64,000 bases of DNA from a virus. Positions 37,535 to 64,000 of the stretch are shown piece by piece; positions within the stretch are counted from its first letter, which is position 1, and each line of letters begins with the position of its first letter. The stretch spans positions 1-64,000 of the IMG/VR virus record IMGVR_UViG_3300027668_000010; one strand, written 5' to 3'. Below the pieces are notes generated by a model that was not told the origin of the DNA, did not search any database, and saw nothing but the letters and a program-made list of their open reading frames with translations. The translations under genes were made by a program, and so were the position numbers.

Positions 37535-38785
37535 ATGATTGATTTCCAAAGTGAAGGTTCAATAGTAATGAATAAAGTGTATATGCACCCAATATGGTCG
37601 GATGTACATCTTCACCCTGCGCAAAATAAACTATCATTACTCTACATCTACGATATAGAGGAAAAGCGAGAGGTTGTTATCAACATTGGTAATAGTGATT
37701 ACCATACATCATCCCTAAGTGATATAACATTCGATATAAAGGAGGCAAATGTATTTGGGAAGAAATCCTTCCTAAATATGATAGAACTCCCACAAACGGT
37801 TGAAGCGGGGTTGTACAAATACCTACAAGATAACAAAACCCTAAAAGAATACCCAACATCAGCACATACATTTTATCAGAGAAAGTTTCATAATATGAAA
37901 TGGGTAAATAATTTAATACCTATCACTAAACATATAGAATCTATCAGACAAACAAGAGATGAATTCCTACAGTATTACGATGTAGGTGGGGGAATCGAAA
38001 AAAGTGTGAAGAAATTTGACAATTTCTACATAGAGCCGTTATCCAAAGTAGAAAAAAGTGGGATATGGACAGAGAGTGGGATGGAGTGGACTCAATATCA
38101 TCCGTTTACGTTAACTTCCCGCCCTTCAAACAACTTTGGGGGTATCAACTATGCTGCACTTAACAAAGAAGATGGTAGTAGAGATAGATTTGTGAGTAGA
38201 TTCGATGGGGGTAAATTAATCCAATTTGATTATGATGCATATCATCCTCGTATTATTGGTAAGATGGTAGGAGAACCGATTCCGTTGGATGTGAGTGGAC
38301 ACCAAACCCTAGCAGATATGTATGGGGTATCTTATTCGGAATCAAAACCAATAACGTTTCGTCAATTATATGGTGGTGTTCAAAGTGAGTACTTACATAT
38401 ACCGTTGTTTAAGAAAGTATCACACAAAATAGATAAGATGTGGGTTGAGTTCACACGTAATGGTTACATTATTACTCCAATGGGTAGAAAGCTTGTTAGA
38501 ACGAACCTAAACGATATGAACGCTAATAAACTATTTAATTATGTTTTACAATCAACGGAAACCGAATTAAATATGGTTATACTTTTAAAATTAATGGAGT
38601 TTATGAAAGATATGAAGTCTAAAATGGTTTTATATACATATGATTCATATTTATTGGATATACACCCTACTGAAATTGGGGTATTAAAAGAATTAAAGAT
38701 ACTTATAGAAGTAAATGGCTTTCCAACGAAAGTAGAGGCTGGTAATCGGTATTCAGAGATGAGTTCGGTTGAAATGAATAAATAG
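37535..38785 (+). CDS. Compact, divergent family-A DNA polymerase
   Basis: T.RPSN, motif A FDYDAYHPR, motif B SKPITFRQLYG, NY.LQS, motif C YTYDS. Confidence 0.8.
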   Translation: MIDFQSEGSIVMNKVYMHPIWSDVHLHPAQNKLSLLYIYDIEEKREVVINIGNSDYHTSSLSDITFDIKEANVFGKKSFLNMIELPQTVEAGLYKYLQDNKTLKEYPTSAHTFYQRKFHNMKWVNNLIPITKHIESIRQTRDEFLQYYDVGGGIEKSVKKFDNFYIEPLSKVEKSGIWTESGMEWTQYHPFTLTSRPSNNFGGINYAALNKEDGSRDRFVSRFDGGKLIQFDYDAYHPRIIGKMVGEPIPLDVSGHQTLADMYGVSYSESKPITFRQLYGGVQSEYLHIPLFKKVSHKIDKMWVEFTRNGYIITPMGRKLVRTNLNDMNANKLFNYVLQSTETELNMVILLKLMEFMKDMKSKMVLYTYDSYLLDIHPTEIGVLKELKILIEVNGFPTKVEAGNRYSEMSSVEMNK

Positions 38786-49883: not shown

Positions 49884-50123
49884 ATGAAATATTTATACTT
49901 CTCAGCAGCTTGGTGTGGCCCATGCAAAACATTAGCACCGATTATGGCTCAAGTAGGCCAATCAGTATCAGTTCAAAAAATCGATGTGGATTCACAATCA
50001 GCATTAGCATCACAATACAACGTTAGGAATGTACCAACTGTGATATTAATAAATGGGTCAACTGAAGTAAAAAGATTCGTTGGGATTCAGTCAAAAGAAA
50101 CTTATATAAATGCCGCAAGATAA
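49884..50123 (+). CDS. trxA: Thioredoxin
   Basis: FSAAWCGPCK, IDVD, VPT. Confidence 0.93.
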   Translation: MKYLYFSAAWCGPCKTLAPIMAQVGQSVSVQKIDVDSQSALASQYNVRNVPTVILINGSTEVKRFVGIQSKETYINAAR

Positions 50124-50181
50124 ATTAGGAAATTCCAAAAAAAAGTTGTATATTTACAATAAGAAACAGTTACGAAAGAAA

Positions 50182-50385
50182 ATGGCACTACGAGGGGAAT
50201 CACATCCAGCACATAAGCTTACGGAAGAGCAGGTTACATCTATTAGAACCCTATATAAAATAGGACACCGAAACATCAAAGTTTTGGCGAGAAATAATGG
50301 AGTATCACCAGCTAACATCCGTAGGATTGTAAAGGGTGAGACTTGGAGACATTTATTGCACGGAAAATTCAATGATTATCAATAA
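50182..50385 (+). CDS. Stand-alone HTH DNA-binding protein (like the C-terminal domain of HNH endonucleases)
   Basis: GE.HP.HKLTEEQV..IR...LA...GVS...I..I..G.TW.H; promoter 50125-50156; ATG 50182. Confidence 0.7.
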   Translation: MALRGESHPAHKLTEEQVTSIRTLYKIGHRNIKVLARNNGVSPANIRRIVKGETWRHLLHGKFNDYQ

Positions 50386-50391
50386 TCAGTT

Positions 50392-51195
50392 ATGAAAGAA
50401 GAAGGTAAACATTACGTTGATGCATCTAAGGTGAGTGTAGCTCCAATTGCTAAATCTATCGCTAAAGATATGATTATCAAAAAACACTATACTCATGCAT
50501 GGACTGCATGTAGGTATTCATTAGGTATATACCATACATTAGATGAAAAAGATGTATTTGGAAACGACCAGCAATTAGTTGGAGTTGCTGTATACGGATT
50601 CCCGGTCGGAGCAAGAGCACCCACATCAGTATGTGATGGTTTAACAAAAGATAATATCTTAGAACTTACTCGATTATATGTAGATGATGGGTTCGGTTCA
50701 AATATAGAGAGCTGTGCATTAGGTAAAACTTTCCAATGGATAAAGGATAATGATAAAAATATCAAAGTGTTACTCAGTTATGCTAATAATGGTGAAGGAC
50801 ACGTTGGTGGTATTTACAAAGCAACCAATTGGATTTATCAAGGATTAAACACCGATTACGCATTGATGGCAAACTGGGGTATATCCCTAACCAAAGACCC
50901 ATATGATTGGATTCATAGTAGAACTGTTTATAATAATTGGGGTAGTGGTAACTTAGAACATCTTCGTAGAGAGATTGGTAAGGAAGGTCATACTGAGTTT
51001 TGGAGAAGAGAAGAACCACCTAAACATAGGTACATTCAGATACTTGCTACCAATAAAAAAGAAAAGAAGGATTTATTCAAAAGGTTAAAGCATGAAATCA
51101 AACCTTATCCTAAAGAATTAAATGATTACAACACCGAAGTTGTAACACATACCACTTATGCGCCTGAAGAGAGTAATGATATCAATTTTTGGTAA
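50392..51195 (+). CDS. Mom-family (GNAT) DNA adenine-modification protein
   Basis: I.KHY, GVAVYG.P, LELTRL...D....N.ES, LLSYA....H.G.IYKATNW.Y.G, K.RY. Confidence 0.8.
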   Translation: MKEEGKHYVDASKVSVAPIAKSIAKDMIIKKHYTHAWTACRYSLGIYHTLDEKDVFGNDQQLVGVAVYGFPVGARAPTSVCDGLTKDNILELTRLYVDDGFGSNIESCALGKTFQWIKDNDKNIKVLLSYANNGEGHVGGIYKATNWIYQGLNTDYALMANWGISLTKDPYDWIHSRTVYNNWGSGNLEHLRREIGKEGHTEFWRREEPPKHRYIQILATNKKEKKDLFKRLKHEIKPYPKELNDYNTEVVTHTTYAPEESNDINFW

Positions 51196-51280
51196 TTGTT
51201 AATAACTTTTCAAAAAAAATACAAAATATTAGGATATACGGAAACGAATTCGTATATTTGTTAAAATTAAAAACACATAA

Positions 51281-53797
51281 ATGTATCAAAATGTATATTA
51301 TGAAAAACAAGCAGGAGTTATCCATTGTTGGGATGATTCTCGTGGATATTTTACAAAGAAGTATAGGAATTATGCTTATGTAGAAGATGGTAATGGTTCA
51401 TACCAATCAATCTATGGTGAACGCTTAAAGAAAATCAATTATTGGAAGCATGAGGATAATCTGAAATTATATGAATCTGATGTAAATGAGGTAACTCGAT
51501 TCTTGATTGATGAGTATGGTGATTCTGATGAGGTATCAGAGGGTAACGTTGTACTAACGTTTGACATTGAGGTAGAAATGAACTCAGGCCTACCTGATAT
51601 TACGGAAGCTAAGAATGCAATGACTTCGGTAGCATTCCATGATTCAGCAACAAAAGATTATCACGTATATGTTATAAACGATGGTGATGAGATAAACAAA
51701 ACTATCAAAGGTGCTATGGTTCGTTCTTTCCGAAGTGAGGAAGATATGCTAATGGCATTCTTAACCAAATGGGAAGAGATTTCACCTACAATCATAACAG
51801 GTTGGAATATTGATTTCTTTGATGTGACTTATCTTTATAATCGAATGAATCGTTTATTGGGAACTAAAAACGCAAATAGATTATCCCCAATACAAAAGGT
51901 TCATTGGAATAAATACAGACAACGTTATATCATAGCCGGTGTATCTGCATTAGATTATATGGCTCTATTTAAAAACTTTACATATACAGAACATCCAAAT
52001 TATAGATTGGATACTATTGCTCGTATGACATTGGGTAGAGGTAAGATTGAATACGAAGGAAACCTCGACCAATTATTCAGAGATGATTTGGAAAAATTCA
52101 TTGAGTATAACTTAGTGGATGTTGAATTGATTGTTGATATGGATAAGAAATTACAGTATATCGATTTGGCTAGAGCAATCTGCCATACAGGACACGTATT
52201 CTATGAAGATTTTATATTCTCATCAAAATGGTTAGAAGGGGCGATATTAACATTCCTACGAAGAAGTAGTCGTATAGCTCCAGATAGACCTCACAGAAGA
52301 AATAAGAACGATGATGGAAGTGATGCAGAAGGTAAGTTTCAAGGAGCATATGTAAAAGAACCAAAACCTGGTCTTTATAAGTGGGTGTATGATTTAGATT
52401 TAACATCACTATACCCATCTATTATTATGACAATTAACATTTCCCCTGAAACAAAGGTTGGTAAGGTAAAAGGATACTCCGTTGAAGAACATATGAAATC
52501 TGCTATTGATGAATACATCATTGTAGATGATAACGGTAAAGACTACCCATCAATGGATAAAGACAAGTTCGAAGATTTCGCTAAAAAGATGGATTTATCA
52601 GTAGCATCGAATGGTGTGTTATATAAGCAAGATTCCGTAGGTGTAATACCTGAGATTCTTAATGTATGGTTCGATAAGAGGGTTAAGTATAAAGACGAGA
52701 TGAAAACGCATGGTAAAGCTGGGAATGATGAATTATACAAATTCTATCATCAAAGGCAGTTAGTTCAGAAGATTATGTTAAATTCACTTTATGGAGTATT
52801 AGGGCTACCTGCTTTTAGATTCTATGATGTGGATAATGCAGAAGCAGTTACACTTACAGGTCAGACTGTAATTAAAACTACTGAGATGATAGCTAATAGT
52901 TATTATAGTAAAATCACAGGTGAGAATAAGGATTATAACATTTATGTTGATACGGATTCAGTATTTTATCAGGCAGCTCCATTAGTGAAAGCTAGAAACC
53001 CCGAAATTGATGAAAGTGATGATGCACAAATGATACCTGCGATACTGCAAGTAGCACAAGAGGTTGAGGCTCACATCAATGCAACGTATGATACGATGTC
53101 AAAAAAGTTATTCAACGTAATTAATCATCGGTTCGATATAAAACAGGAGACTATCGCAAAAGGTGGTTTTTGGGTATCAAAGAAACGATACGCACAATGG
53201 ATTATCAATGATAATACTGTGGATTGTGATAAATTAGATGTTAAGGGATTGGATGTAAAACGTAGTTCATTTCCAACATACTTTAAAGAGGTAATGTCAA
53301 CTGTATTATGGGATATTCTAAAGGATGAGGATAAGATGAAGTTGGACCAGAAGATTTTAGATTATAAGGATGACATGCCTAAAAGAAACTTTATCGATAT
53401 TGCTAAGAATTCAGCAGTAAAGGGTATGAGTAAGTATTCTACTAAAACGCAAGTACTTGGTGAATTTATGAAAGGTACTCCAGCGCATGTTAAAGCAGCA
53501 CTTACTTACAATCAATTATTGAAGTATTACAAAACCGCTTTCAAATACGAACCAATGAAAGATGGTGATAAGATAAAGTATGTGTATTTGAAGAATAACC
53601 CATTAGGATTAGAAACAGTTGGATTGACTGGGTATAACGACCCAAAAGAGATATTGGATTTAGTAGAAGAGTATATTGATTACAATAAACTATGGGAACG
53701 TGAGTTAAAGAATAAGTTAGATGATTTCTATTCAGCGATGAATTGGGAGAACCCAAATCCAAACTTAGAGAATATAGGAAAATTCTTTTCGTTTTAA
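51281..53797 (+). CDS. Family-B DNA polymerase (gp43-like)
   Basis: Exo FDIE, GWN...FD, YN..D; pol DLTSLYPS, KIMLNSLYG, YVDTDS, KKRY. Confidence 0.97.
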   Translation: MYQNVYYEKQAGVIHCWDDSRGYFTKKYRNYAYVEDGNGSYQSIYGERLKKINYWKHEDNLKLYESDVNEVTRFLIDEYGDSDEVSEGNVVLTFDIEVEMNSGLPDITEAKNAMTSVAFHDSATKDYHVYVINDGDEINKTIKGAMVRSFRSEEDMLMAFLTKWEEISPTIITGWNIDFFDVTYLYNRMNRLLGTKNANRLSPIQKVHWNKYRQRYIIAGVSALDYMALFKNFTYTEHPNYRLDTIARMTLGRGKIEYEGNLDQLFRDDLEKFIEYNLVDVELIVDMDKKLQYIDLARAICHTGHVFYEDFIFSSKWLEGAILTFLRRSSRIAPDRPHRRNKNDDGSDAEGKFQGAYVKEPKPGLYKWVYDLDLTSLYPSIIMTINISPETKVGKVKGYSVEEHMKSAIDEYIIVDDNGKDYPSMDKDKFEDFAKKMDLSVASNGVLYKQDSVGVIPEILNVWFDKRVKYKDEMKTHGKAGNDELYKFYHQRQLVQKIMLNSLYGVLGLPAFRFYDVDNAEAVTLTGQTVIKTTEMIANSYYSKITGENKDYNIYVDTDSVFYQAAPLVKARNPEIDESDDAQMIPAILQVAQEVEAHINATYDTMSKKLFNVINHRFDIKQETIAKGGFWVSKKRYAQWIINDNTVDCDKLDVKGLDVKRSSFPTYFKEVMSTVLWDILKDEDKMKLDQKILDYKDDMPKRNFIDIAKNSAVKGMSKYSTKTQVLGEFMKGTPAHVKAALTYNQLLKYYKTAFKYEPMKDGDKIKYVYLKNNPLGLETVGLTGYNDPKEILDLVEEYIDYNKLWERELKNKLDDFYSAMNWENPNPNLENIGKFFSF

Positions 53798-53861
53798 TTA
53801 GGATATATGGAAAAGAATTCGTATATTAGTATAAATAAATAATAAATAGTAAATTTAAAGC

Positions 53862-54557
53862 ATGAAAAAAGCATCAATTGAACAATTCGTCAATCGTTAC
53901 AACTTAGGTGGTGAGGTTGAATCAGTAAAAATTGAATCTACAGATGATTCAATGAAAGTAAGTTTTATCTCAGATGATAAAACTCTATTAGGTACAGTAG
54001 AATCCGCAGAGAAGGATTTCCCAAATGGTGAATTTGGTATCTATACAACATCTCAAATGAAAGCACTATTAGGTGTAGTAGAATCAAACGTAGACGTAGG
54101 AGCAGAAGATTCGTATCTTACGTTTTCGGATAAAGGTACATCAGTAAACTATATGTTGGCTGATTTATCAGTTATTCCAGTAGTTCCAGATTTAAAGCAA
54201 GTACCACCATTCGATTCTGAAATTACTTTAGATGATGAATTTACAAATAGATTCATTAAATCTAAAGGAGCACTTAACGAATCAGATACATTTACATTTA
54301 CTTGTACTGGCGGTAAAGGTGAGGTTGTATTAGGTTATTCAACTATTAATACAAACAGAATCTCTATGACAGTTGAGTGTAAATGTGATACGGATATAAA
54401 ACCTATTTCGTTTTCAGCAAAATATCTAAAAGAGATACTAATGGCGAACAAAGGTTCTAAATCAGCAACTCTTAAAATAGCATCAGCTGGATTAGCACAT
54501 GTTAAGTTCGAACGAGATGGTTTAGTTTCCAATTATTTTCTCGTAGAAATTAAGTAG
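53862..54557 (+). CDS. Sliding clamp (gp45-like)
   Basis: EFGIY, Y.LAD.SVI; located between polymerase and clamp loader. Confidence 0.8.
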   Translation: MKKASIEQFVNRYNLGGEVESVKIESTDDSMKVSFISDDKTLLGTVESAEKDFPNGEFGIYTTSQMKALLGVVESNVDVGAEDSYLTFSDKGTSVNYMLADLSVIPVVPDLKQVPPFDSEITLDDEFTNRFIKSKGALNESDTFTFTCTGGKGEVVLGYSTINTNRISMTVECKCDTDIKPISFSAKYLKEILMANKGSKSATLKIASAGLAHVKFERDGLVSNYFLVEIK

Positions 54558-54615
54558 TTTGGTAAAACCAATTCTTTTTCGTATATTTACAAATAATAAT
54601 TAAAAACAATTAAGT

Positions 54616-55833
54616 ATGGATTTTTGGGATGCAGAGCCAGAGAAACCTAAATTTGATTTTGAGAAGCAGAAGAGTGAGTTAATCCAAAATATGGATTATC
54701 TCGCTACCATGTCTGTTCAAGAGCAAGTTTTGTATAAGAAGTGGGTAGAATTACAGGATGTTAAAATGATTAGGGATAAATCTCAAATCGCAGCAATGTA
54801 TGATACTCAATGGGCTCCAACTGATATTAACAATTTGGAGCAAACTATTAAAGAGATTGAAGAGTTAGAACCTTATGTTGAAATTTTGGAAGATACTAAA
54901 GATGCAGCTAAATGGACATATGCTAGACGTATGATTCATTCTATGGATTTTACTGCTAATCCCGGCCGCAATGTTAAAATCAATGTTAAAGATAAAACGA
55001 GTGGTAAACTCTTAGGACAAATATCATTAGCATCAGATGTAACATCAATGGCAGTTAGAGATAACTACATTGGTTGGACTAAGGATGATAAGTTTAAGAA
55101 AGGAAAGCTAAACCATACTACAATTGCATCAACTATTGTTTGTACACAACCGTTAGGTTATAATTTCTTAGGTGGAAAGCTCGTTGCTATGATGACAACA
55201 GTTCCGGACGTAAGAGAATTTTGGAAGAAAAAGTATGGACAGACTTTGGTAGGTGTTGGTACAACTTCATTATATGGGATTCATTCTCAATATAATGGAA
55301 TTCCTCACTTTAAAACATTGGGTGAATCAGCAGGAAAGATTTCTCTGAAACCTGATGATAAGTTCTACGAACCTTGGCATCAGCATATTAAAGAAGAACA
55401 TGCCGAATGGTATGAAACCGCAATCACTAATGAACGAATTCGTAATGGTGCTAGTATGGGTACTGGTGAAGGTGCTAGTGGACCTGTAAGTGGTATCAAA
55501 CAAAAGATTCTTGGAAAGATTTTCAAAGAATGTGGTATCAAACAATCAGCTTACCACCACGGATTCCACAGGGGAGTTTATTTGGCAATGATGTACGATA
55601 ATGGACAAGCATTCTTACGAGATGAAATTGAAGAATCTGAATTGGTGATGAAAAAGAAGTTTGAGGATGGAGTTCCTTATATTAATAATTGGTGGAAGAA
55701 GAAAGCCATCAAACGTTACACTAAATTACACTCAGAGGGTAGGTTAAAGCCTGAGCATTTATTTTATTTGGAAGCAATTGGAATGAGTTGGGAAAAGATG
55801 AAGGAAACTTACTTAAAAGAAATAGGAAGATAA
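54616..55833 (+). CDS. DUF4338/DruA-like (GNAT-related) protein
   Basis: PGR.....V.D..SGK.LG.I.L.SD....RD..IGW, QPLGYNFLGGKL.A, TTSLYG..SQY, G.S.G. Confidence 0.7.
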   Translation: MDFWDAEPEKPKFDFEKQKSELIQNMDYLATMSVQEQVLYKKWVELQDVKMIRDKSQIAAMYDTQWAPTDINNLEQTIKEIEELEPYVEILEDTKDAAKWTYARRMIHSMDFTANPGRNVKINVKDKTSGKLLGQISLASDVTSMAVRDNYIGWTKDDKFKKGKLNHTTIASTIVCTQPLGYNFLGGKLVAMMTTVPDVREFWKKKYGQTLVGVGTTSLYGIHSQYNGIPHFKTLGESAGKISLKPDDKFYEPWHQHIKEEHAEWYETAITNERIRNGASMGTGEGASGPVSGIKQKILGKIFKECGIKQSAYHHGFHRGVYLAMMYDNGQAFLRDEIEESELVMKKKFEDGVPYINNWWKKKAIKRYTKLHSEGRLKPEHLFYLEAIGMSWEKMKETYLKEIGR

Positions 55834-55843
55834 AATTACAAAT

Positions 55844-56776
55844 ATGATTAAAAAAGAAAAGCACTCACTATGGGTGGAACGGTATAGGCCGGATTCAATG
55901 GATGGGTATGTTGGTAATCAGCATATCATAGAGAAAGTAAAGATTTACATTGAGAGTAATGATGTACCCCATTTGTTACTATACGGACAAGCTGGTACAG
56001 GTAAAACAACTCTTGCTAAAATCATTACAAACCAAATCGATTGTGATTTGATGTATATTAACGCATCTGATGAAAACTCAGTTGATGCAGTTCGTGATAA
56101 GATTCGTGGATTTGCATCATCAATGGGATTCAAAGAGTGGAAGATTGTAATACTTGATGAAGCAGATTACCTAACACCAAACGCACAAGCAGCTCTCCGT
56201 AACCTGATGGAAACGTTCTCCAGAACGACAAGATTCATTTTGACTTGTAACTATGTAGAGAAAGTGATTGACCCTATCCAAAGTAGATGTCAAACATTTG
56301 GGATTACACCACCATCTAAAAAGGAAGTAGCTATGAGATTGAAACAAATCTTAGATACCGAAGAGGTGAAGTATGAAATGTCTGACTTAGCAATCTTAGT
56401 GAATAGTGGATACCCTGATATTCGTAGAGTTTTAAACGCAGCTCAACGACAAGTAGTAGGTAATGAATTAAAGATTGATAAAACATCAGCTATTCAGGCC
56501 AACTATATGGATGAGGTACTTACTGTATTACAATCAAATGGTAGTGTTAAAGATTCTTTTACTAACGTAAGAAAGATTATAGCTGATTCAAAGGTAAGAG
56601 ATTTTACACCATTTTACAGATTTTTGTATGATGAAGTAGATAACTATGCAAATGGTAAGATTGGTAGTACAATTTTAAATATAGCAGATGCTCAATATAA
56701 GGATTCTCAATGTGTAGATAAAGAAATATCTGTGATGGCTATGTTGTTAGAAATAATAACTGACATTAGAAAATAA
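55844..56776 (+). CDS. Clamp loader ATPase subunit (gp44/RFC-like)
   Basis: WVERYRP, GQAGTGKTT, INASDE, DEADY, AQAALR, SRC. Confidence 0.95.
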   Translation: MIKKEKHSLWVERYRPDSMDGYVGNQHIIEKVKIYIESNDVPHLLLYGQAGTGKTTLAKIITNQIDCDLMYINASDENSVDAVRDKIRGFASSMGFKEWKIVILDEADYLTPNAQAALRNLMETFSRTTRFILTCNYVEKVIDPIQSRCQTFGITPPSKKEVAMRLKQILDTEEVKYEMSDLAILVNSGYPDIRRVLNAAQRQVVGNELKIDKTSAIQANYMDEVLTVLQSNGSVKDSFTNVRKIIADSKVRDFTPFYRFLYDEVDNYANGKIGSTILNIADAQYKDSQCVDKEISVMAMLLEIITDIRK

Positions 56777-56868
56777 AAGTAAATAAATTAGGATATATGG
56801 AAAAGAATTCGTATATTTGTGTAAACAATAAGTAAATTAAATTAGTAACAATAAACAAAAGTAGTATT

Positions 56869-57039
56869 ATGACAAATTCAAATGAAATTTTCGAATCAAT
56901 TAAAGAATTATATACAGAGTTCGAAGCAGAGCACAACGGTACAACAAAAGCATCTAAAAGTAGAGCTAGAAAAGCTATCGGAGAAATCAAAAAGTTAGTA
57001 ACTGAGTACAGAAAACTATCAGTAGAAGAATCTAAGTAA
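56869..57039 (+). CDS. Hc1-like (Bacteroidota histone-H1-like) small basic protein, 56 aa, not in ORF track
   Basis: MTNSNEIFESIKELYTEFEAEHNGTTKASKSRARKAIGEIKKLVTEYRKLSVEESK; own promoter 56788-56819. Confidence 0.7.
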   Translation: MTNSNEIFESIKELYTEFEAEHNGTTKASKSRARKAIGEIKKLVTEYRKLSVEESK

Positions 57040-57041
57040 TT

Positions 57042-57302
57042 ATGGCAAAGAAAAGTGGAAAGGTGATTGGTATGAACCAACCGCCACCTGCACCTAAAAT
57101 GCAGTTAGACCCAACAAAGTTGGACACCGTTCGTTGTGAAGAATGTGATGGTATATTCTTCAATGAGGTAACGATGTACAAAGTAGTTCCTGCAGTACAA
57201 GCACCTAATGGTCAGAAATCAATGTTACCTATTCCGGTACAACGATGTGCTGATTGTGGTAATGTATCAGAACAATTTTTACCAAAAGAGTTATTACCTT
57301 AA
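57042..57302 (+). CDS. Zinc-ribbon protein
   Basis: CEECD ... CADCG. Confidence 0.65.
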   Translation: MAKKSGKVIGMNQPPPAPKMQLDPTKLDTVRCEECDGIFFNEVTMYKVVPAVQAPNGQKSMLPIPVQRCADCGNVSEQFLPKELLP

Positions 57303-57757
57303 TGGCGAAAAAAGCAAGTACAGGTATAAAAGCAAAATCCATATTCGACCACCTTTCGGGAATTAAAGAAAAGAAAACATCTTGGGAATCTTTAACAGAT
57401 ATGGACAAGAAATCATTCAGCCCCTTTATAATCAACCGATGGTTAAGTATGAATATGGATTTGCTGCCTATTGTTAATATTCTCCAAAAGTACACAATCG
57501 GACTTCTATCTGCTAGAGATACCTACAAAGTATATTTAGATTTCCTACCTAATAAGAAAACGTTTGATAAATATATCAAAGGTAAATCTGATGGGAAATA
57601 TAATAAAGATATGTTAAAGTATCTATCTACTTGGTATGGTGTTTCTCAGAGAGAGGTTATCGATTATATGGAGCTCCTACCGAAGCAGGAGGTTTTGGAT
57701 ATATTAATGAAATACGGGTTAACAGATAAAGAAGCTAAAAAACTATTAAAAAAATGA
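57302..57757 (+). CDS. Clamp loader small subunit (gp62-like)
   Basis: FD.L..I...K, FSPFIINRWLSM, YGVS.RE..DY; near gp44-like gene. Confidence 0.7.
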   Translation: MAKKASTGIKAKSIFDHLSGIKEKKTSWESLTDMDKKSFSPFIINRWLSMNMDLLPIVNILQKYTIGLLSARDTYKVYLDFLPNKKTFDKYIKGKSDGKYNKDMLKYLSTWYGVSQREVIDYMELLPKQEVLDILMKYGLTDKEAKKLLKK

Positions 57758-58020
57758 TGAGAAATAAAAACGTATTAGTAGATATGCTGAGAACATCAGC
57801 AATGGCTGATAAAGCAAAAGCACTACTTTCATTAGATTTGTTGGAACATCGAGCCGTAGGGATTGGTGACCATTCAACTGATGATTTCTATAAAAACGCG
57901 GAGGAAGCTCTTATGTTATTGGTAGATGCAGATGATAGATTAACGGCATTGGATAAGTATTTTAATCCAAATACAATTTCCAACGATAGTAATGAAAGTA
58001 AAACTTGGTTAAATGGATAA
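57754..58020 (+). CDS. Hypothetical protein
   Basis: AKA.L.L..L....VGIGDHS. Confidence 0.6.
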   Translation: MMRNKNVLVDMLRTSAMADKAKALLSLDLLEHRAVGIGDHSTDDFYKNAEEALMLLVDADDRLTALDKYFNPNTISNDSNESKTWLNG

Positions 58021-58450
58021 TATTATATTAAAATTGGAGAATATTAAAGAATCAAAATCGAAAGTAGTTCATAGAGGTGAGAGAGAATACAAAGCCAATA
58101 TGGGTGATAAAACCCTAACTGCAATCCAACATTGTGAAGAAACATATCCTATAATGATGGAAGAGTACAAACGTATTATGTGGGACCAATATGAAACGTT
58201 TTGTAAGAAACAAAAAAATTATGGGCCGGGTAACATATCAGTAGGTACTCCCTTAGAAACGAAGGATGATATTAAATTATCATTAACTGGATTGTGGTTT
58301 AGAATGAATGATAAAATTCAAAGACTAAAACAATTAGTTGTATTAGGACATGATGATGAAGTAGGTGAATCTGTGCAAGATACATTTCAAGACTTATCGG
58401 TATATGGAATCATAGCTCAAATTGTTCAAAATAAAAAGTGGGGAAAGTAA
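58013..58450 (+). CDS. DUF1599 / nucleotide-modification-associated protein
   Basis: KKQ.NYG, R.NDKI.RL, ES..DT..DL..Y.II. Confidence 0.7.
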   Translation: MDNIILKLENIKESKSKVVHRGEREYKANMGDKTLTAIQHCEETYPIMMEEYKRIMWDQYETFCKKQKNYGPGNISVGTPLETKDDIKLSLTGLWFRMNDKIQRLKQLVVLGHDDEVGESVQDTFQDLSVYGIIAQIVQNKKWGK

Positions 58451-58451
58451 T

Positions 58452-59036
58452 ATGAAAAACTTATTAACATTAGTAGTATGTATATTGTTTACATACATAG
58501 GGTTTGGACAGAAAACAAAAACAATAGAAACTGATATATTTAAAATAGTATATTCAGAAAAGTATCAACAACCCCTTTCAGTAGAGTATGAGGTTCAATG
58601 TCCTAATGGGGATGCGAGTAGGAAGGGTATGAATTTCTATGGAGTTGATTCTGTAATAACATCAAACAACGCTGATTATAAAAACAATGTATGGGATAAA
58701 GGTCATATGGCACCTGCAGCTGCATTCAATTGTAATACACAACTATTAAGAGAAACATTCAGTTATCTTAATTGTGCACTACAACATCAAGGTTTAAATA
58801 GAGGCCCATGGAAAGAATTGGAAGCGTTTGAGAGAAGCTTAGCAAAAGTACATTCATTAGTTATTGTAATTATTACAATTCATTTTGATGATGAGATGGG
58901 GTTACTCCCAACTGATGCGAGAGTACCTACTGGATTTACAAAGAAAATATTCACAGGCTCTTCTGATTCACTCGTATTCCATTTTCCTAATAGTAATGTA
59001 GCCGGTGTAAATTGGTTGGAATTTCAAATAGATTAA
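58452..59036 (+). CDS. Exported DNA/RNA non-specific endonuclease (NucA/EndA family)
   Basis: Signal peptide MKNLLTLVVCILFTYIGFG-Q; DKGHMAPAA, TF.Y.N...Q...LNRG.W..LE. Confidence 0.88.
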   Translation: MKNLLTLVVCILFTYIGFGQKTKTIETDIFKIVYSEKYQQPLSVEYEVQCPNGDASRKGMNFYGVDSVITSNNADYKNNVWDKGHMAPAAAFNCNTQLLRETFSYLNCALQHQGLNRGPWKELEAFERSLAKVHSLVIVIITIHFDDEMGLLPTDARVPTGFTKKIFTGSSDSLVFHFPNSNVAGVNWLEFQID

Positions 59037-61330: not shown

Positions 61331-62728
61331 ATGAGTACAGAAAAAAAGAAACGCAAGATATTATTGCTATCAGATGATATGAGACTCCATAGTGGAATCG
61401 CTACAATGTCGAAGGAGATGGTTCTACATACAGTACACAAATACGATTGGATTCAAGTCGGAGCAGCTGTTAAACATCCTGATGCAGGAAAACTATTTGA
61501 TGTATCAGATTCAGTAGCAGCAGAAAGTGGTGTTAAGGATGCTAGTGTAAAGATTATCCCATTTAGTGGATATGGTAATCAAGAACTACTTAGACAATTA
61601 ATAGCATCAGAACGACCCGATGCTATATTACACTTTACAGACCCGAGGTTTTGGGAGTGGTTGTATGCTATGGAAGATGAAGTTCGTAGACACTGCCCTA
61701 TTATGTATTATAATATATGGGATGATTTACCAGACCCACAATGGAACGCTCCGTTCTATGCAAGTTGTGATTTACTAATGGGTATTTCAAAACAAACGTA
61801 TGGTATTAACCATAGGGTATTAGAAAAGTTTGGTGAGAAGTATGAAGATTGGCAGATAAAGTATGTACCACATGGTGTATCAGAAAAGTTCAAACCAATT
61901 CCAAAAGATTCAGTTGATTTCGGTAAAGTAACTGAATTAAAAAAGAAGCTGAATATTTCAGATAAGAAGTTCGTTGTGTTATATAACAATAGAAACATCC
62001 GTAGAAAGAACCCAGGTGATGTAATATTAGCATATAAAGAAATGTGTGATAGCATGACCGTTGATGAAGCTAAGGATTGTGTTTTATTATTACATACAAC
62101 ACCCATCGACTCTAATGGTACAGATATCCCTGCAGTAATTAAGGAATTATGTTCTGATTATGATGTGGTATTTACAAACGCTCAGTTCTCAACTGATGAA
62201 TTGAATGTATTATACAATATTGCTGATGTTACACTTAATATGGCATCCAATGAAGGATTCGGATTAGCAACTTGTGAATCAATGAAAGCAGGTACACCTA
62301 TTATAGTTAATGTAACAGGTGGTATGCAAGACCATTGTGGATTTACCAAAGATGGTAAGTTCATATCAGCTGATGATTATATAGAATTAGGGTCACTCCA
62401 CAACCACAAAAAACTTCCAGAGAATTTAGGATGGGGTAGATGGGTAAAGCCAATATGGCCTACAAATCGTTCATTACAAGGTTCTCCTATGACACCTTAT
62501 ATATTTGATGATAGGTGTTCATACGAAGATGCTGGTAAAGCATTAAAGCAATGGTATGATATGAGTGAAGAGACTCGTATCGAATGTGGATTAGAAGGTT
62601 CGGAGTTCGCAAATTCAGAAGAAAGTGGAATGAGTGCAAGAAATATGGGAGCGAGATTTATCGATTCCATTGAAGGTACATTTAAAAATTGGTCACCAAG
62701 AAACGAAATAAATTTATGGAAAATATAA
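61331..62728 (+). CDS. Glycosyltransferase (GT-B/GT4-like)
   Basis: SG.A, YVPHGV, NRN.RRK, LY..AD, NEGFGL..CES..AGTPII. Confidence 0.88.
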   Translation: MSTEKKKRKILLLSDDMRLHSGIATMSKEMVLHTVHKYDWIQVGAAVKHPDAGKLFDVSDSVAAESGVKDASVKIIPFSGYGNQELLRQLIASERPDAILHFTDPRFWEWLYAMEDEVRRHCPIMYYNIWDDLPDPQWNAPFYASCDLLMGISKQTYGINHRVLEKFGEKYEDWQIKYVPHGVSEKFKPIPKDSVDFGKVTELKKKLNISDKKFVVLYNNRNIRRKNPGDVILAYKEMCDSMTVDEAKDCVLLLHTTPIDSNGTDIPAVIKELCSDYDVVFTNAQFSTDELNVLYNIADVTLNMASNEGFGLATCESMKAGTPIIVNVTGGMQDHCGFTKDGKFISADDYIELGSLHNHKKLPENLGWGRWVKPIWPTNRSLQGSPMTPYIFDDRCSYEDAGKALKQWYDMSEETRIECGLEGSEFANSEESGMSARNMGARFIDSIEGTFKNWSPRNEINLWKI

Positions 62729-64000
62729 AGAAGTTATGTGTAGTAAGTGCGCCCGTTGCAACCCGAAGTGGTTATGGTGCACGTAGTAGAGATTTTGTAA
62801 GAGGTCTTATCAAATCAAAACCAGATTGGGATATTAAAATCCTTTCTCAGAGATGGGGAGCAACTCCAATGGATGCACTTAAAGAAGGTGAAGATAGTGA
62901 TTTATTAAATAGAATCATATTGGAGAAAATGGATACTAAACCAAATGTATGGATTCAAATTACTGTACCAAATGAGTTTCAATCAGTTGGTGATTATAAC
63001 ATTGGTGTTACTGCAGGTGTAGAAACAACAGTTATGCCACCTGAATGTTTAGAGGGTATTAATCGTATGGATTTAACATTAGTATCATCCAATTTTACTA
63101 AGGAGGTAATAATGAGTTCTACCTTTGATAAGAAGGATAAAGATTCAGGTCAACAAATAGGCCAGTTGAAGCTTGAAAAGCCGGTTGAGGTTCTATTTGA
63201 AGGTATCGATTTGGATATCTACAATGAAAAAGCAGCAACTGAACCTAGAATTGATAATGTTCTCAAAGATGTTACAGAGGAATTTGCGTTCCTATTTGTA
63301 GGACATTGGTTAAAGGGTGAATTCTTACAAGATAGAAAGAATGTAAGTGGTTTAATTTGGACATTCTTAAATCAGTTCAAAAATAAAAACAAAGTACCAG
63401 CATTAATTCTAAAAACATCATCAGGTTCTACTTCATTAGTAGATAGGGTTCATATTAAACAACAGATTGAACACATAAAGAATCATGTAAGAAAAGAAAC
63501 GGGTGCAAAGAAATTACCTAATATATACCTACTACATTCAGATTTAACAGATGCGGAAATGAACGCATTATACAATCACCCAAAAGTTAAAGCCCATACT
63601 TCTTTTACGAGAGGTGAAGGATTTGGAAGACCTTTATTAGAAGCTACTATTAGTGGTAAACCAATGGTTGTTAGTGGTTGGAGTGGTCATATGGACTTTA
63701 TGCAACCAACATTTGTTAATGTAATTAGTGGTAAGTTAGACAACGTTCATAATACAGCTGCTGATAAGTTCCTTCTTAAAGAAGGGCAGTGGTTCACAAT
63801 TGATTATAGTGCCGCTGGTTCATATATGGAAGGTATTTTCAAAAATTACAAAACACATTTGGAATTATCAAGAAAACATCGTAAGTTTACAAAAGATAAC
63901 TTTTCATTTGATAAGATGGTTGAATTAATGGGTACTCTAATAGATGAAACTAAGGTTGCCTCTAAACCACAGACTGTTGGTTTACAGTTACCTAAGTTGA
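62716..64000 (+). CDS. Second glycosyltransferase (GT-B); runs off the window end
   Basis: ATG 62716, open to end; SGYG..SRD, FLFVGHW, DRKN, RGEGFGRPLLEA, WSGH.DF. Confidence 0.85.
   Translation, partial: MENIKKLCVVSAPVATRSGYGARSRDFVRGLIKSKPDWDIKILSQRWGATPMDALKEGEDSDLLNRIILEKMDTKPNVWIQITVPNEFQSVGDYNIGVTAGVETTVMPPECLEGINRMDLTLVSSNFTKEVIMSSTFDKKDKDSGQQIGQLKLEKPVEVLFEGIDLDIYNEKAATEPRIDNVLKDVTEEFAFLFVGHWLKGEFLQDRKNVSGLIWTFLNQFKNKNKVPALILKTSSGSTSLVDRVHIKQQIEHIKNHVRKETGAKKLPNIYLLHSDLTDAEMNALYNHPKVKAHTSFTRGEGFGRPLLEATISGKPMVVSGWSGHMDFMQPTFVNVISGKLDNVHNTAADKFLLKEGQWFTIDYSAAGSYMEGIFKNYKTHLELSRKHRKFTKDNFSFDKMVELMGTLIDETKVASKPQTVGLQLPKL

What the first reader, a model, noticed from the sequence alone, without database searches (positions are those of the whole stretch)
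50182..58450. Two GNAT-type DNA-modifier candidates built into the replisome cluster
Gene order is HTH, Mom-like, PolB, clamp, DUF4338/DruA-like, clamp loader, then gp62-like and DUF1599. Mu Mom modifies adenine to block restriction. DruA-like proteins are known from Druantia defence, but here one stands alone among replication genes. The polymerase ends in a clamp-binding-like NIGKFFSF, the Mom-like protein ends in a flexible ..ESNDINFW, and the DUF4338 protein begins MDFWD. These similar aromatic terminal peptides could dock on the clamp. Inference: a replication-coupled, clamp-tethered DNA hypermodification system with possibly new base chemistry.
Basis: partly seen in the sequence, partly recalled or inferred. 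Interest (0 to 1): 0.72.

Follow-up and report, generated by a model that had tools for sequence, protein, structure and literature searches.

The report
Mom and DruA-like acyltransferases among replisome genes
An uncultured marine phage keeps two acyltransferase-fold enzymes among its DNA-replication genes: a true relative of phage Mu's DNA-disguising enzyme Mom, and a member of the unexplained bacterial defence family DruA whose closest solved structure is Mom itself. They most likely mark the phage's own DNA, which gives a testable lead on what DruA proteins do.

Summary
Genes, order and terminal peptides are as described, with three extra small genes.

- **Mom-like gene (50392-51195).** It is a bona fide Mom-family member. 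It keeps the residues shown to be essential in Mu Mom (R111/S124 equivalents).
- **DUF4338 gene (54616-55833).** It belongs to the DruA protein family but not to a Druantia system. Its model is confident (pLDDT 90.8). Of 48,161 solved chains, the Mu Mom crystal 8bv8 is the best match (Z 10.1), followed by ordinary GNATs.
- **Position.** In clamp-seeded relatives the gene follows the clamp in 63 of 69 loci. In four cyanomyophage genera it lies between the two clamp-loader genes.
- **Relatives without it.** The same slot then holds a DNA glycosyltransferase (TAGT) or a GT-B-like protein. The Mom slot is empty or holds an ABC-ATPase+GNAT.
- **Terminal peptides.** The FW ends are strictly conserved. 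In Aeromonas phage PX29 a Mom-like protein ends in the same peptide as its own polymerase.

HTH and DUF1599 stay when Mom and DruA are lost, so they are probably not part of the system. The chemistry of the DruA-like enzyme is unknown.

This scan had already noted the same module in at least 30 other genomes, with the same reading.

The parts
50110..50385 (+). Small HTH protein upstream of Mom. Probably not specific to Mom.
   Evidence: phrog_517 E 2e-6; Pfam HTH hits are below cut-off. It is retained and abuts PolB in relatives that lack Mom.
50392..51195 (+). Mom-family GNAT (267 aa), a candidate aminoacyl-tRNA-dependent adenine N6 modifier.
   Evidence: PF25680 E 4.2e-44. 8bv8 (Mu Mom) E 5.9e-5, with equivalents of H58, Y59, R111, S124, Y159 and W181 kept as H32, Y33, R94, S107, Y142 and W162. 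AF2 model pLDDT 86.4.
51169..51192 (+). C-terminal peptide ESNDINFW of Mom. It ends a 25-aa extension beyond the YPK where Mu Mom stops.
   Evidence: FW is kept while the linker varies. pLDDT 57 for 261-267.
51281..53797 (+). Family B replicative DNA polymerase (838 aa).
   Evidence: PF00136, PF03104; phrog_262 E 1.5e-187.
53771..53794 (+). Polymerase C-terminal peptide NIGKFFSF, the presumed clamp-binding epitope.
   Evidence: [QEK]FF[GSA]F* is kept in nearly all relatives. T4-family polymerases bind gp45 through such C-termini (PMC2988020).
53862..54557 (+). Sliding clamp (gp45-type, 231 aa).
   Evidence: phrog_223 E 9.8e-11; weak NCBIfam sliding-clamp hit.
54616..55833 (+). DUF4338/DruA-family protein (405 aa). 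N-terminal helical domain (about 15-83) plus a GNAT core (about 79-335).
   Evidence: PF14236 E 4.7e-21; PADLOC DruA E 7e-17. AF2 pLDDT 90.8. Best of 48,161 chains is 8bv8_B, Z 10.1, rmsd 3.6, 166 aligned residues.
54616..54639 (+). N-terminal peptide MDFWDAEP of the DruA-like protein.
   Evidence: M(x)FWD[TA]EP in every N-terminus that could be read, 65 loci of the clamp-seeded set, and in close relatives. Residues 1-6 have pLDDT below 50.
55844..56776 (+). Clamp-loader large subunit (gp44-type).
   Evidence: phrog_168 E 8e-80; AAA, DNA_pol3_delta2, Gp44_lid.
56869..57039 (+). Hc1 histone-like protein.
   Evidence: PF07432 E 3e-9.
57042..57302 (+). Small Zn-ribbon protein.
   Evidence: Weak Zn-ribbon hits; conserved in relatives.
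57302..57757 (+). Clamp-loader small subunit (gp62-type).
   Evidence: PF16790 E 1.1e-6; phrog_225 E 1.7e-18.
58013..58450 (+). DUF1599 (Nmad1) protein. A neighbour, probably independent of Mom and DruA.
   Evidence: PF07659 25.8 bits. Retained in relatives without Mom and DruA.
54578..54587 (+). Promoter-like motif TTCGTATATT in the 58-nt gap before the DruA-like gene. Exact copies also lie before PolB (51249), clamp (53818), Hc1 (56808) and gp32 (42216).
   Evidence: 7 exact + strand copies, 5 of them checked to lie just upstream of genes. 26 matches with up to 1 mismatch against 10.2 expected; 0 of 100 shuffles reach that number.

Best explanation
The block holds two DNA-directed acyltransferases that are expressed with the replication genes. 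The Mom-like protein is an active Mom-type enzyme. By analogy with Mu Mom, it takes an aminoacyl group (glycine in Mu) from a charged host tRNA and puts it on N6 of adenine in double-stranded phage DNA, which blocks restriction. The DruA-like protein is a second GNAT of the DUF4338 family whose core is most like Mom. It most likely also modifies a DNA base, with a donor not yet known; an acyl-CoA donor is possible, because a Q-x-x-G ... GGK loop sits where GNATs bind CoA. Both carry a short conserved aromatic-acidic end peptide (Mom ...NFW at the C-end, DruA-like M-x-FWD at the N-end). This peptide probably docks them on the sliding clamp, as the polymerase tail does, so that new DNA is marked just behind the fork. 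Shown: family membership, fold, conserved catalytic residues of Mom, gene position, conservation of the end peptides. Inferred: DNA as the substrate of the DruA-like protein, its donor, and clamp docking.
For: Mom: PF25680 at 151 bits. The alignment to 8bv8 keeps R111/S124 (essential in Mu, PMC13219725) and H58, Y59, Y159, W181. DruA-like: the model has pLDDT 90.8. Mu Mom is the top hit of 48,161 chains at Z 10.1, then GNATs at Z 8-8.7. Weak Foldseek hits are nearly all acyl/acetyltransferase-fold proteins. Longer family members are fused to ParB_N, UDG or DUF3102 and to DndF (PMC10853773), which are DNA contexts. Position: the gene directly follows the clamp in 63 of 69 clamp-seeded relatives. 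It lies between gp44 and gp62 in S-PRM1, S-SSM7, S-CAM9 and S-SM2. Slot replacement: in DruA-less relatives the slot holds a TAGT DNA glycosyltransferase (PF20691 E 9e-36; phrog_842) or a GT-B-like protein. The Mom slot is empty or holds an ABC-ATPase+GNAT of a type predicted elsewhere to acylate DNA bases (PMC7824862). 4 of 5 DruA-less records also lack Mom. Mom and DruA identities track each other (Spearman 0.78, n=16, not independent) better than either tracks PolB. Tags: the FW ends are conserved. PX29 Mom-like ends GLTDLFGDF and its PolB ends SLTDLFGDW. In the complete relative G001, gp44 starts MGFFEE, an endonuclease VII-like protein starts MTFWE, and a sigma-like protein ends FFSY like PolB. 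The DruA-like gene has the same promoter-like motif as PolB and clamp.
Against: Profile comparison of the Mom and DruA families is not significant (hhalign probability 0.5%). The link is therefore fold only, and Z 10.1 is only about 1.5 above generic GNATs. No equivalents of Mom's R/S pair could be mapped in the DruA-like protein. The FW peptides differ from the polymerase's FFSF. Terminal F[FW] pairs are not rare in an AT-rich proteome: about 2 N-terminal and 1 C-terminal are expected by my estimate per 283 ORFs, against 3 and 3 seen. Three FW-tagged proteins of the own contig have no known function. Cyanophage and pelagiphage DruA-like proteins lack FW ends. Only the last 7 or so residues of Mom are of low confidence. 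Mu Mom works post-replicatively without any known clamp link (PMC13219725). One relative has two Moms and no DruA, so the two are not obligate partners. No modification data exist for this uncultured phage.
Confidence: 0.5

Rival explanations
1. The DruA-like protein is an acetyltransferase for a non-DNA target: a replisome or host protein, or a charged tRNA as with TacT/AtaT toxins. It sits in the clamp operon only to be expressed at the right time.
For: Most GNATs at Z 8-8.7 act on proteins or small molecules. Foldseek's weak hits include p300/CBP and the tRNA acetyltransferase TmcA. A motif-A-like Q-x-x-G...GGK loop suggests acyl-CoA, the usual donor of protein acetyltransferases (sequence). 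No sequence link to Mom.
Against: The best structural match is the DNA-modifying Mom. Family fusions are to DNA-handling domains: ParB_N, UDG, DndF (PMC10853773). Its slot is taken by a DNA glycosyltransferase in a relative. It tends to be lost together with Mom.
Confidence: 0.2
2. Both enzymes modify DNA, but the FW end peptides are not clamp tags. They serve folding, oligomerisation, or binding to another hub or to each other, and the gene position reflects co-expression only.
For: FW is not FFSF. Cyanophage DruA-like proteins keep the clamp-loader position without any such end. Part of the Mom extension is predicted to pack as a strand. Terminal aromatic pairs are near the chance number. 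Mu Mom needs no clamp (PMC13219725).
Against: PX29 Mom-like carries the polymerase's exact tail. In G001 the clamp loader itself has an N-terminal GFFEE end. Other enzymes found in these two slots end in NKFF (clamp-to-loader slot) or KFWDIG (Mom slot). The ends are acidic plus hydrophobic, as are the T4 clamp epitopes (PMC2988020).
Confidence: 0.35
3. The DruA-like protein is a captured defence component used as a decoy or inhibitor against host type I Druantia.
For: It matches the PADLOC DruA models. Phages do capture defence parts (general knowledge).
Against: It is a near-core gene: 63 of 69 relatives, and 1023 clusters at 50% identity. It is fixed in the replication operon under a replication-type promoter motif. 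It is present in Pelagibacter phages, whose hosts have very few defence systems (my own knowledge, not tested). Conserved catalytic-looking residues argue for an enzyme.
Confidence: 0.05

Closest known systems
Phage Mu Mom (PF25680; PDB 8bv8; Silva et al., Nat Commun 2026, PMC13219725)
   Same: The 267-aa protein is a sequence-level family member with the essential R and S and four further important residues kept. The DruA-like protein shares the fold, with Mom as its best structural match.
   Different: The gene here lies in the early/replication block, next to the polymerase, not at the late end of the genome behind Com. It has a 25-aa C-terminal extension ending in FW that Mu Mom lacks. The DruA-like protein has no detectable sequence relation to Mom, an extra N-terminal helical domain and a different conserved-residue set.
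DruA (DUF4338, PF14236), first gene of type I Druantia (DruABCDE)
   Same: Significant matches to the Pfam and PADLOC DruA models. The GNAT nature of DUF4338 was already stated by Aravind's group (PMC10853773).
   Different: No other Druantia gene is present. It is a phage gene, placed between clamp and clamp loader. The function of DruA itself is unknown, so no functional sameness can be claimed.
DUF4338 'putative cytoplasmic protein' (T4-GC 1216) of cyanomyophages; DruA-like proteins noted by Phold (bioRxiv 10.1101/2025.08.05.668817)
   Same: Same family (26-32% identity over the GNAT core) and the same association with clamp/clamp-loader genes.
   Different: The cyanophage gene lies between gp44 and gp62. 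Its similarity to this protein starts only at about residue 106-116, so the N-terminal region is not shared. It has no FW end.
T4 clamp clients gp43, gp55, gp33 with interchangeable hydrophobic-acidic C-terminal epitopes (PMC2988020)
   Same: A short hydrophobic plus acidic end peptide on a variable linker. The polymerase here ends in a conserved FFSF.
   Different: The Mom and DruA-like ends are FW, and one of them is N-terminal. Binding is untested.
TAGT DNA glycosyltransferase (PF20691) and the ABC-ATPase+GNAT predicted DNA acylase (PMC7824862)
   Same: They occupy the very same two gene slots in a DruA-less, Mom-less relative (L134).
   Different: Unrelated folds or architectures. They are positional stand-ins, not homologues.

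Membership tests
Mom family (PF25680) | Match to the family profile above the curated cut-off | tested here: met
   151.1 bits against a cut-off of 27.1, covering profile 2-202 of 202; phrog_1384 E 3.8e-46.
Mom family (PF25680) | Catalytic R111 and S124 of Mu Mom | tested here: met
   R94 and S107 align with them (chain number = native number minus 9, checked on H58/Y59, W48, Y159, W181). R94 is invariant across diverse phage Moms. S107 is S or T there and invariant in the lineage.
Mom family (PF25680) | Further residues important for activity (H58, Y59, W48, Y159, W181) | tested here: met
   H32, Y33, Y142 and W162 are kept. The W48 equivalent is Ser.
Mom family (PF25680) | HTH-like insertion needed for activity (Mu residues about 175-209) | tested here: inconclusive
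   The model has two helices, 176-183 and 188-197, in the matching region. No superposition could be made.
Mom family (PF25680) | Gly-tRNA(Gly)-dependent modification of dA in dsDNA | not testable with these tools
   This needs biochemistry. There is no tRNA gene in the 100.5-kb record or in a complete relative, so a host tRNA would be used.
Mom family, for the DruA-like protein | Sequence or profile relation to Mom | tested here: not met
   No PF25680 hit. BLASTP shows nothing. hhalign probability 0.5%.
Mom family, for the DruA-like protein | Mom-like fold | tested here: met
   8bv8_B is rank 1 of 48,161 chains: Z 10.1, rmsd 3.6, 166 of 202 residues.
DruA / DUF4338 (PF14236) | Match to the family profiles | tested here: met
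   PF14236 75.6 bits against a cut-off of 27; PADLOC PDLC00002 E 7.3e-17.
Type I Druantia system | DruA together with DruB-DruE (large DruE helicase with an MZB/DUF1998 domain) | tested here: not met
   The neighbours are clamp and clamp loader. No PF09369 match in the 100.5-kb record. The record is only about 53% complete.
GNAT superfamily, for the DruA-like protein | GNAT core fold | tested here: met
   Dozens of GNATs at Z 7.4-8.7 over model residues about 80-350. Foldseek hits are nearly all acyl/acetyltransferase-fold proteins.
GNAT superfamily, for the DruA-like protein | Motif A (Q/R-x-x-G-x-G/A) at the beta4-alpha3 loop that binds CoA | tested here: inconclusive
   A near-invariant Q178-P179-x-G181 ... 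G186-G187-K188 lies between strand 168-176 and helix 186-195. The register relative to the classic motif was not checked by superposition.
T4-type sliding-clamp clients | Conserved hydrophobic-acidic terminal peptide on a variable or disordered linker | tested here: met
   For Mom, the low-confidence part is only the last 7 or so residues.
T4-type sliding-clamp clients | Same peptide as the polymerase tail | tested here: not met
   FW against FFSF in this phage. It is met in Aeromonas phage PX29 for its Mom-like protein.
T4-type sliding-clamp clients | Physical binding to the clamp | not testable with these tools

The most novel reading that the evidence does not exclude
DUF4338/DruA proteins are a second, widespread family of DNA-base acyltransferases, sisters in fold to Mom. 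In marine phages they ride the sliding clamp and mark newly made DNA with a modification not yet described. By extension, DruA of type I Druantia would mark or read DNA in the same way, which would explain the first gene of a defence system whose mechanism is unknown.
Probability: 0.3. Interest if true: 0.8.

Novelty: new variant of a known kind. Interest (0 to 1): 0.6.

Why it matters
DruA is the unexplained first gene of type I Druantia, and Mom's chemistry was solved only in 2026. This phage lineage is very abundant: 3006 homologues of the DruA-like protein at E <= 1e-5, most of them from metagenomes. It offers three things:

- A DruA-family enzyme in a context that points to DNA.
- Natural 'knock-out' relatives that lack it.
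- Stand-in enzymes in the same gene slot.

If the enzyme modifies DNA, many marine phage genomes carry an unrecognised base modification. That would affect sequencing, restriction-based methods and host-range inference. If the end peptides bind the clamp, this would be a case of DNA-modifying enzymes carried on the replisome 'toolbelt'.

Tried and rejected
- **Nucleotide search.** The block found no match among 50,697 phage records.
- **Sequence searches against solved structures.** Neither the DruA-like protein nor its family profile found anything meaningful.
- **Mom against DruA by sequence.** BLASTP and hhalign gave nothing significant. Residue-level mapping of Mom's catalytic pair onto the DruA-like model was not possible, because the tools give ranges only.
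- **Private glycine tRNA idea** (from earlier notes). No tRNA in the whole 100.5-kb record. None in a complete 252.6-kb relative with Mom at 87% and DruA at 78% identity. A second complete relative has 26 tRNAs, including two ordinary-looking tRNA-Gly. So a phage tRNA is not required in this lineage.
- **gp55-type late sigma factor with a matching tail.** The HTVC008M gp55 query found nothing in this record or in two complete relatives. A 239-aa protein ending FFSY in G001 is sigma-like only by language-model features. It shows no BLASTP match to gp55 and no useful PHROG hit.
- **Counting terminal aromatic pairs as enrichment.** Rejected as evidence: the observed numbers are near my chance estimate.
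- **HTH as a Com-like regulator of Mom, and DUF1599 as part of the system.** Both are kept where Mom and DruA are absent.
Full report
**What is there.** The window is the first 64 kb of a 100.5-kb IMG/VR virus record, about 53% complete, with G+C about 34% and nearly all genes on the + strand.
- HTH (50110-50385)
- Mom (50392-51195)
- PolB (51281-53797)
- clamp (53862-54557)
- DUF4338/DruA-like (54616-55833)
- gp44-type clamp loader (55844-56776)
- Hc1-like, Zn-ribbon
- gp62-type clamp loader (57302-57757)
- a phrog_1811 protein
- DUF1599 (58013-58450)

Upstream lie gp32, RecA/UvsX, FEN, DnaB-type helicase, RNR, MazG-like and thioredoxin genes. One close Mom relative is labelled 'Polaribacter phage' by its source. 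The best cultured-phage match of Mom is Polaribacter phage P12002L. With the Hc1 gene, this fits a Bacteroidota host.

**The Mom-like protein is a real Mom.**
- It matches PF25680 at 151 bits and the crystal sequence of Mu Mom (8bv8) at E 5.9e-5.
- Chain numbering in 8bv8 is native minus 9. I checked this on H58/Y59, W48, Y159 and W181.
- With that offset, the two residues shown to be essential in Mu (R111, S124; PMC13219725) correspond to R94 and S107. These are invariant, or S/T, across diverse phage Moms.
- H58, Y59, Y159 and W181 are also kept. W48 is not.
- Mu Mom transfers glycine from Gly-tRNA(Gly) to N6 of adenine in dsDNA after replication, and the adduct rearranges to carbamoylmethyl-adenine (PMC13219725). 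That is the most likely chemistry here, with a host tRNA as donor.
- Neither this record nor a complete 252.6-kb relative has any tRNA gene.
- Unlike Mu Mom, which ends at the conserved YPK, this protein has a further 25 residues ending in FW.

**The DruA-like protein is a GNAT whose nearest solved structure is Mom.**
- It matches PF14236 (E 4.7e-21) and the PADLOC DruA model (E 7e-17).
- No DruE-type MZB domain is in the record, and its neighbours are the clamp and the clamp loader.
- The family is large: 3006 homologues at E <= 1e-5 and 1023 clusters at 50% identity.
- A model built on 54 sequences has pLDDT 90.8.
- Foldseek gives only weak hits, nearly all acyl/acetyltransferase-fold proteins.
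- The wide VIA search puts Mu Mom 8bv8_B first of 48,161 chains (Z 10.1, rmsd 3.6 A, 166 residues, model 79-335). A long list of GNATs follows at Z 8.7 and below.
- The margin over generic GNATs is modest, and profile comparison with Mom is not significant. The claim is therefore 'GNAT, most Mom-like in shape', not 'Mom family'.
- A near-invariant Q178-P-x-G181...G186-G187-K188 sits at the beta4-alpha3 junction, where GNATs bind the CoA pyrophosphate. An acyl-CoA donor is therefore possible. This is inference.
- That DUF4338 is a GNAT was already stated (PMC10853773). DruA-like proteins in Synechococcus phages were already noticed (bioRxiv 10.1101/2025.08.05.668817).

**Context points to DNA.**
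- Longer members of the family carry N-terminal ParB_N, UDG or DUF3102 domains. Some are fused to DndF (PMC10853773).
- In relatives found with the DruA-like protein itself, the order clamp, DruA, gp44 holds even where PolB, clamp and gp44 have fallen to 50-60% identity.
- In relatives found with the clamp, a search unbiased for DruA, 63 of 69 loci have the gene directly after the clamp.
- In four cyanomyophage genera the family member lies between gp44 and gp62. In Pelagibacter myophages it lies a few kb upstream of the clamp.
- The gene has its own copy of a promoter-like motif, TTCGTATATT. Exact copies also precede PolB, clamp, gp32 and Hc1.

**Natural replacements.** Six clamp-seeded relatives lack the gene.
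- In the L109/L111/L114/L115 lineage, HTH abuts PolB, so there is no Mom. The clamp-to-loader slot holds a 496-aa protein that looks like a GT-B glycosyltransferase by language-model features (a lead only) and ends in NKFF.
- In L134 the DruA slot holds a TAGT DNA glycosyltransferase (PF20691 E 9e-36; phrog_842). The Mom slot holds an ABC-ATPase+GNAT protein of the kind predicted to acylate DNA bases (PMC7824862).
- L130 has two Moms and no DruA.
- Over whole records, 4 of 5 DruA-less relatives also lack Mom. These are fragments and probably only one or two independent events.
- Identities of Mom and DruA to the window's proteins track each other (Spearman 0.78, 16 non-independent loci) better than either tracks PolB.
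- Together this suggests two 'modification slots' in the replisome block, whose occupants change together.
- HTH and DUF1599 stay in place when Mom and DruA are gone, so I do not count them as parts of the system.

**Clamp docking.** T4-family clamps bind the interchangeable hydrophobic-acidic C-termini of gp43, gp55 and gp33 (PMC2988020).

In favour:
- PolB here always ends [QEK]FF[GSA]F. One class of Mom paralogs always ends in FW behind a variable linker. The DruA-like protein always starts M(x)FWD[TA]EP.
- An extra Mom paralog in L026, placed between the Zn-ribbon gene and gp62, starts MEFW.
- The best independent support is Aeromonas phage PX29, a T4 relative. Its Mom-like protein ends GLTDLFGDF and its polymerase ends SLTDLFGDW.
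- In the complete relative G001, gp44 itself starts MGFFEE, an endonuclease VII-like protein starts MTFWE, and a possibly sigma-like protein ends FFSY.

Against:
- FW is not FFSF.
- Cyanophage and pelagiphage homologues lack such ends.
- The count of terminal aromatic pairs is near my chance estimate.
- Only about 7 residues of the Mom tail and 6 of the DruA head are of low confidence in the models.

I put clamp docking at about 0.4.

**Verdict.** My estimates:
- About 0.8 that the Mom-like protein is an active adenine modifier.
- About 0.5 that the DruA-like protein is a DNA-base acyltransferase.
- About 0.4 that clamp tethering occurs.

This scan had already met the same module in at least 30 other genomes, and earlier follow-ups reached the same reading. 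I re-derived the fold match, the synteny and the end peptides myself. I add the cyanophage gp44/gp62 position, the TAGT and ABC-GNAT replacements, the PX29 tail identity, and the finding that a phage tRNA is not needed in this lineage.

Noticed in passing
window 61331-64000, continuing to about 79 kb of the record (L054): A large island of glycosyltransferase and nucleotide-sugar genes follows the replication block. It includes two GT4 (one hitting 'GT4-conflict'), a GT2, a TOD1/MUCI70-like GT, UDP-GlcNAc 2-epimerase, an NAD epimerase/dehydratase, an MBL-fold protein and a 2-hydroxyacid dehydrogenase. The target (DNA, virion or host surface) is unknown.
   Followed up: partly
window 37535-38785: A 416-aa ORF has only a sub-threshold match to family A DNA polymerase (23.3 bits against a cut-off of 34.3), in a genome that already has a full PolB.
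   Followed up: no
window 56869-57039: An Hc1 histone H1-like protein gene (PF07432 E 3e-9) lies between the two clamp-loader genes, with its own copy of the TTCGTATATT motif at 56808.
   Followed up: no
window 34144, 36034, 42216, 51249, 53818, 54578, 56808 (+ strand): Seven exact copies of TTCGTATATT; the five copies checked (42216, 51249, 53818, 54578, 56808) each lie just upstream of an early/replication gene. The TATATTTG part resembles the Bacteroidota -7 promoter element (my own knowledge).
   Followed up: partly
own record 90765-91265 (L064:4766-5266), outside the window: A 166-aa protein of no known family ends in ...KNFW, like Mom. Two further unknown ORFs start MIFW (65163-66005 and 98884-99069).
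   Followed up: partly
L018:1761-2519, L036:15988-16734, L113 886-2410: Many relatives have two tandem Mom paralogs. One class ends in FW. The other ends LEPIE(R/S)x and has no aromatic tag.
   Followed up: partly
L049:459-1343 and L053 (Aeromonas phage PX29, NC_023688.1): The Mom-like protein of this T4 relative has a long C-terminal extension that ends in the same LTDLFGD[FW] peptide as its DNA polymerase.
   Followed up: yes
L056 (Pelagibacter phage HTVC008M, 95828-101038): HTVC008M has a second DUF4338 paralog of the cyanophage type (ending ...IQIIR), in the same 5.2-kb locus as PolB, besides the one at 86116-87258.
   Followed up: no
L058:7540-7610 (Synechococcus phage S-SSM7): A tRNA-Gly gene lies about 3 kb downstream of the DUF4338 gene.
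   Followed up: no
L048 (Microbacterium phage Cassita): The order HTH protein, Mom-like acetyltransferase, small ORF, DNA polymerase I recurs in an unrelated actinophage.
   Followed up: no
window 58422-59036: A DNA/RNA non-specific endonuclease (PF01223 E 7.5e-26) with a hydrophobic N-terminal segment overlaps the end of the DUF1599 gene.
   Followed up: no
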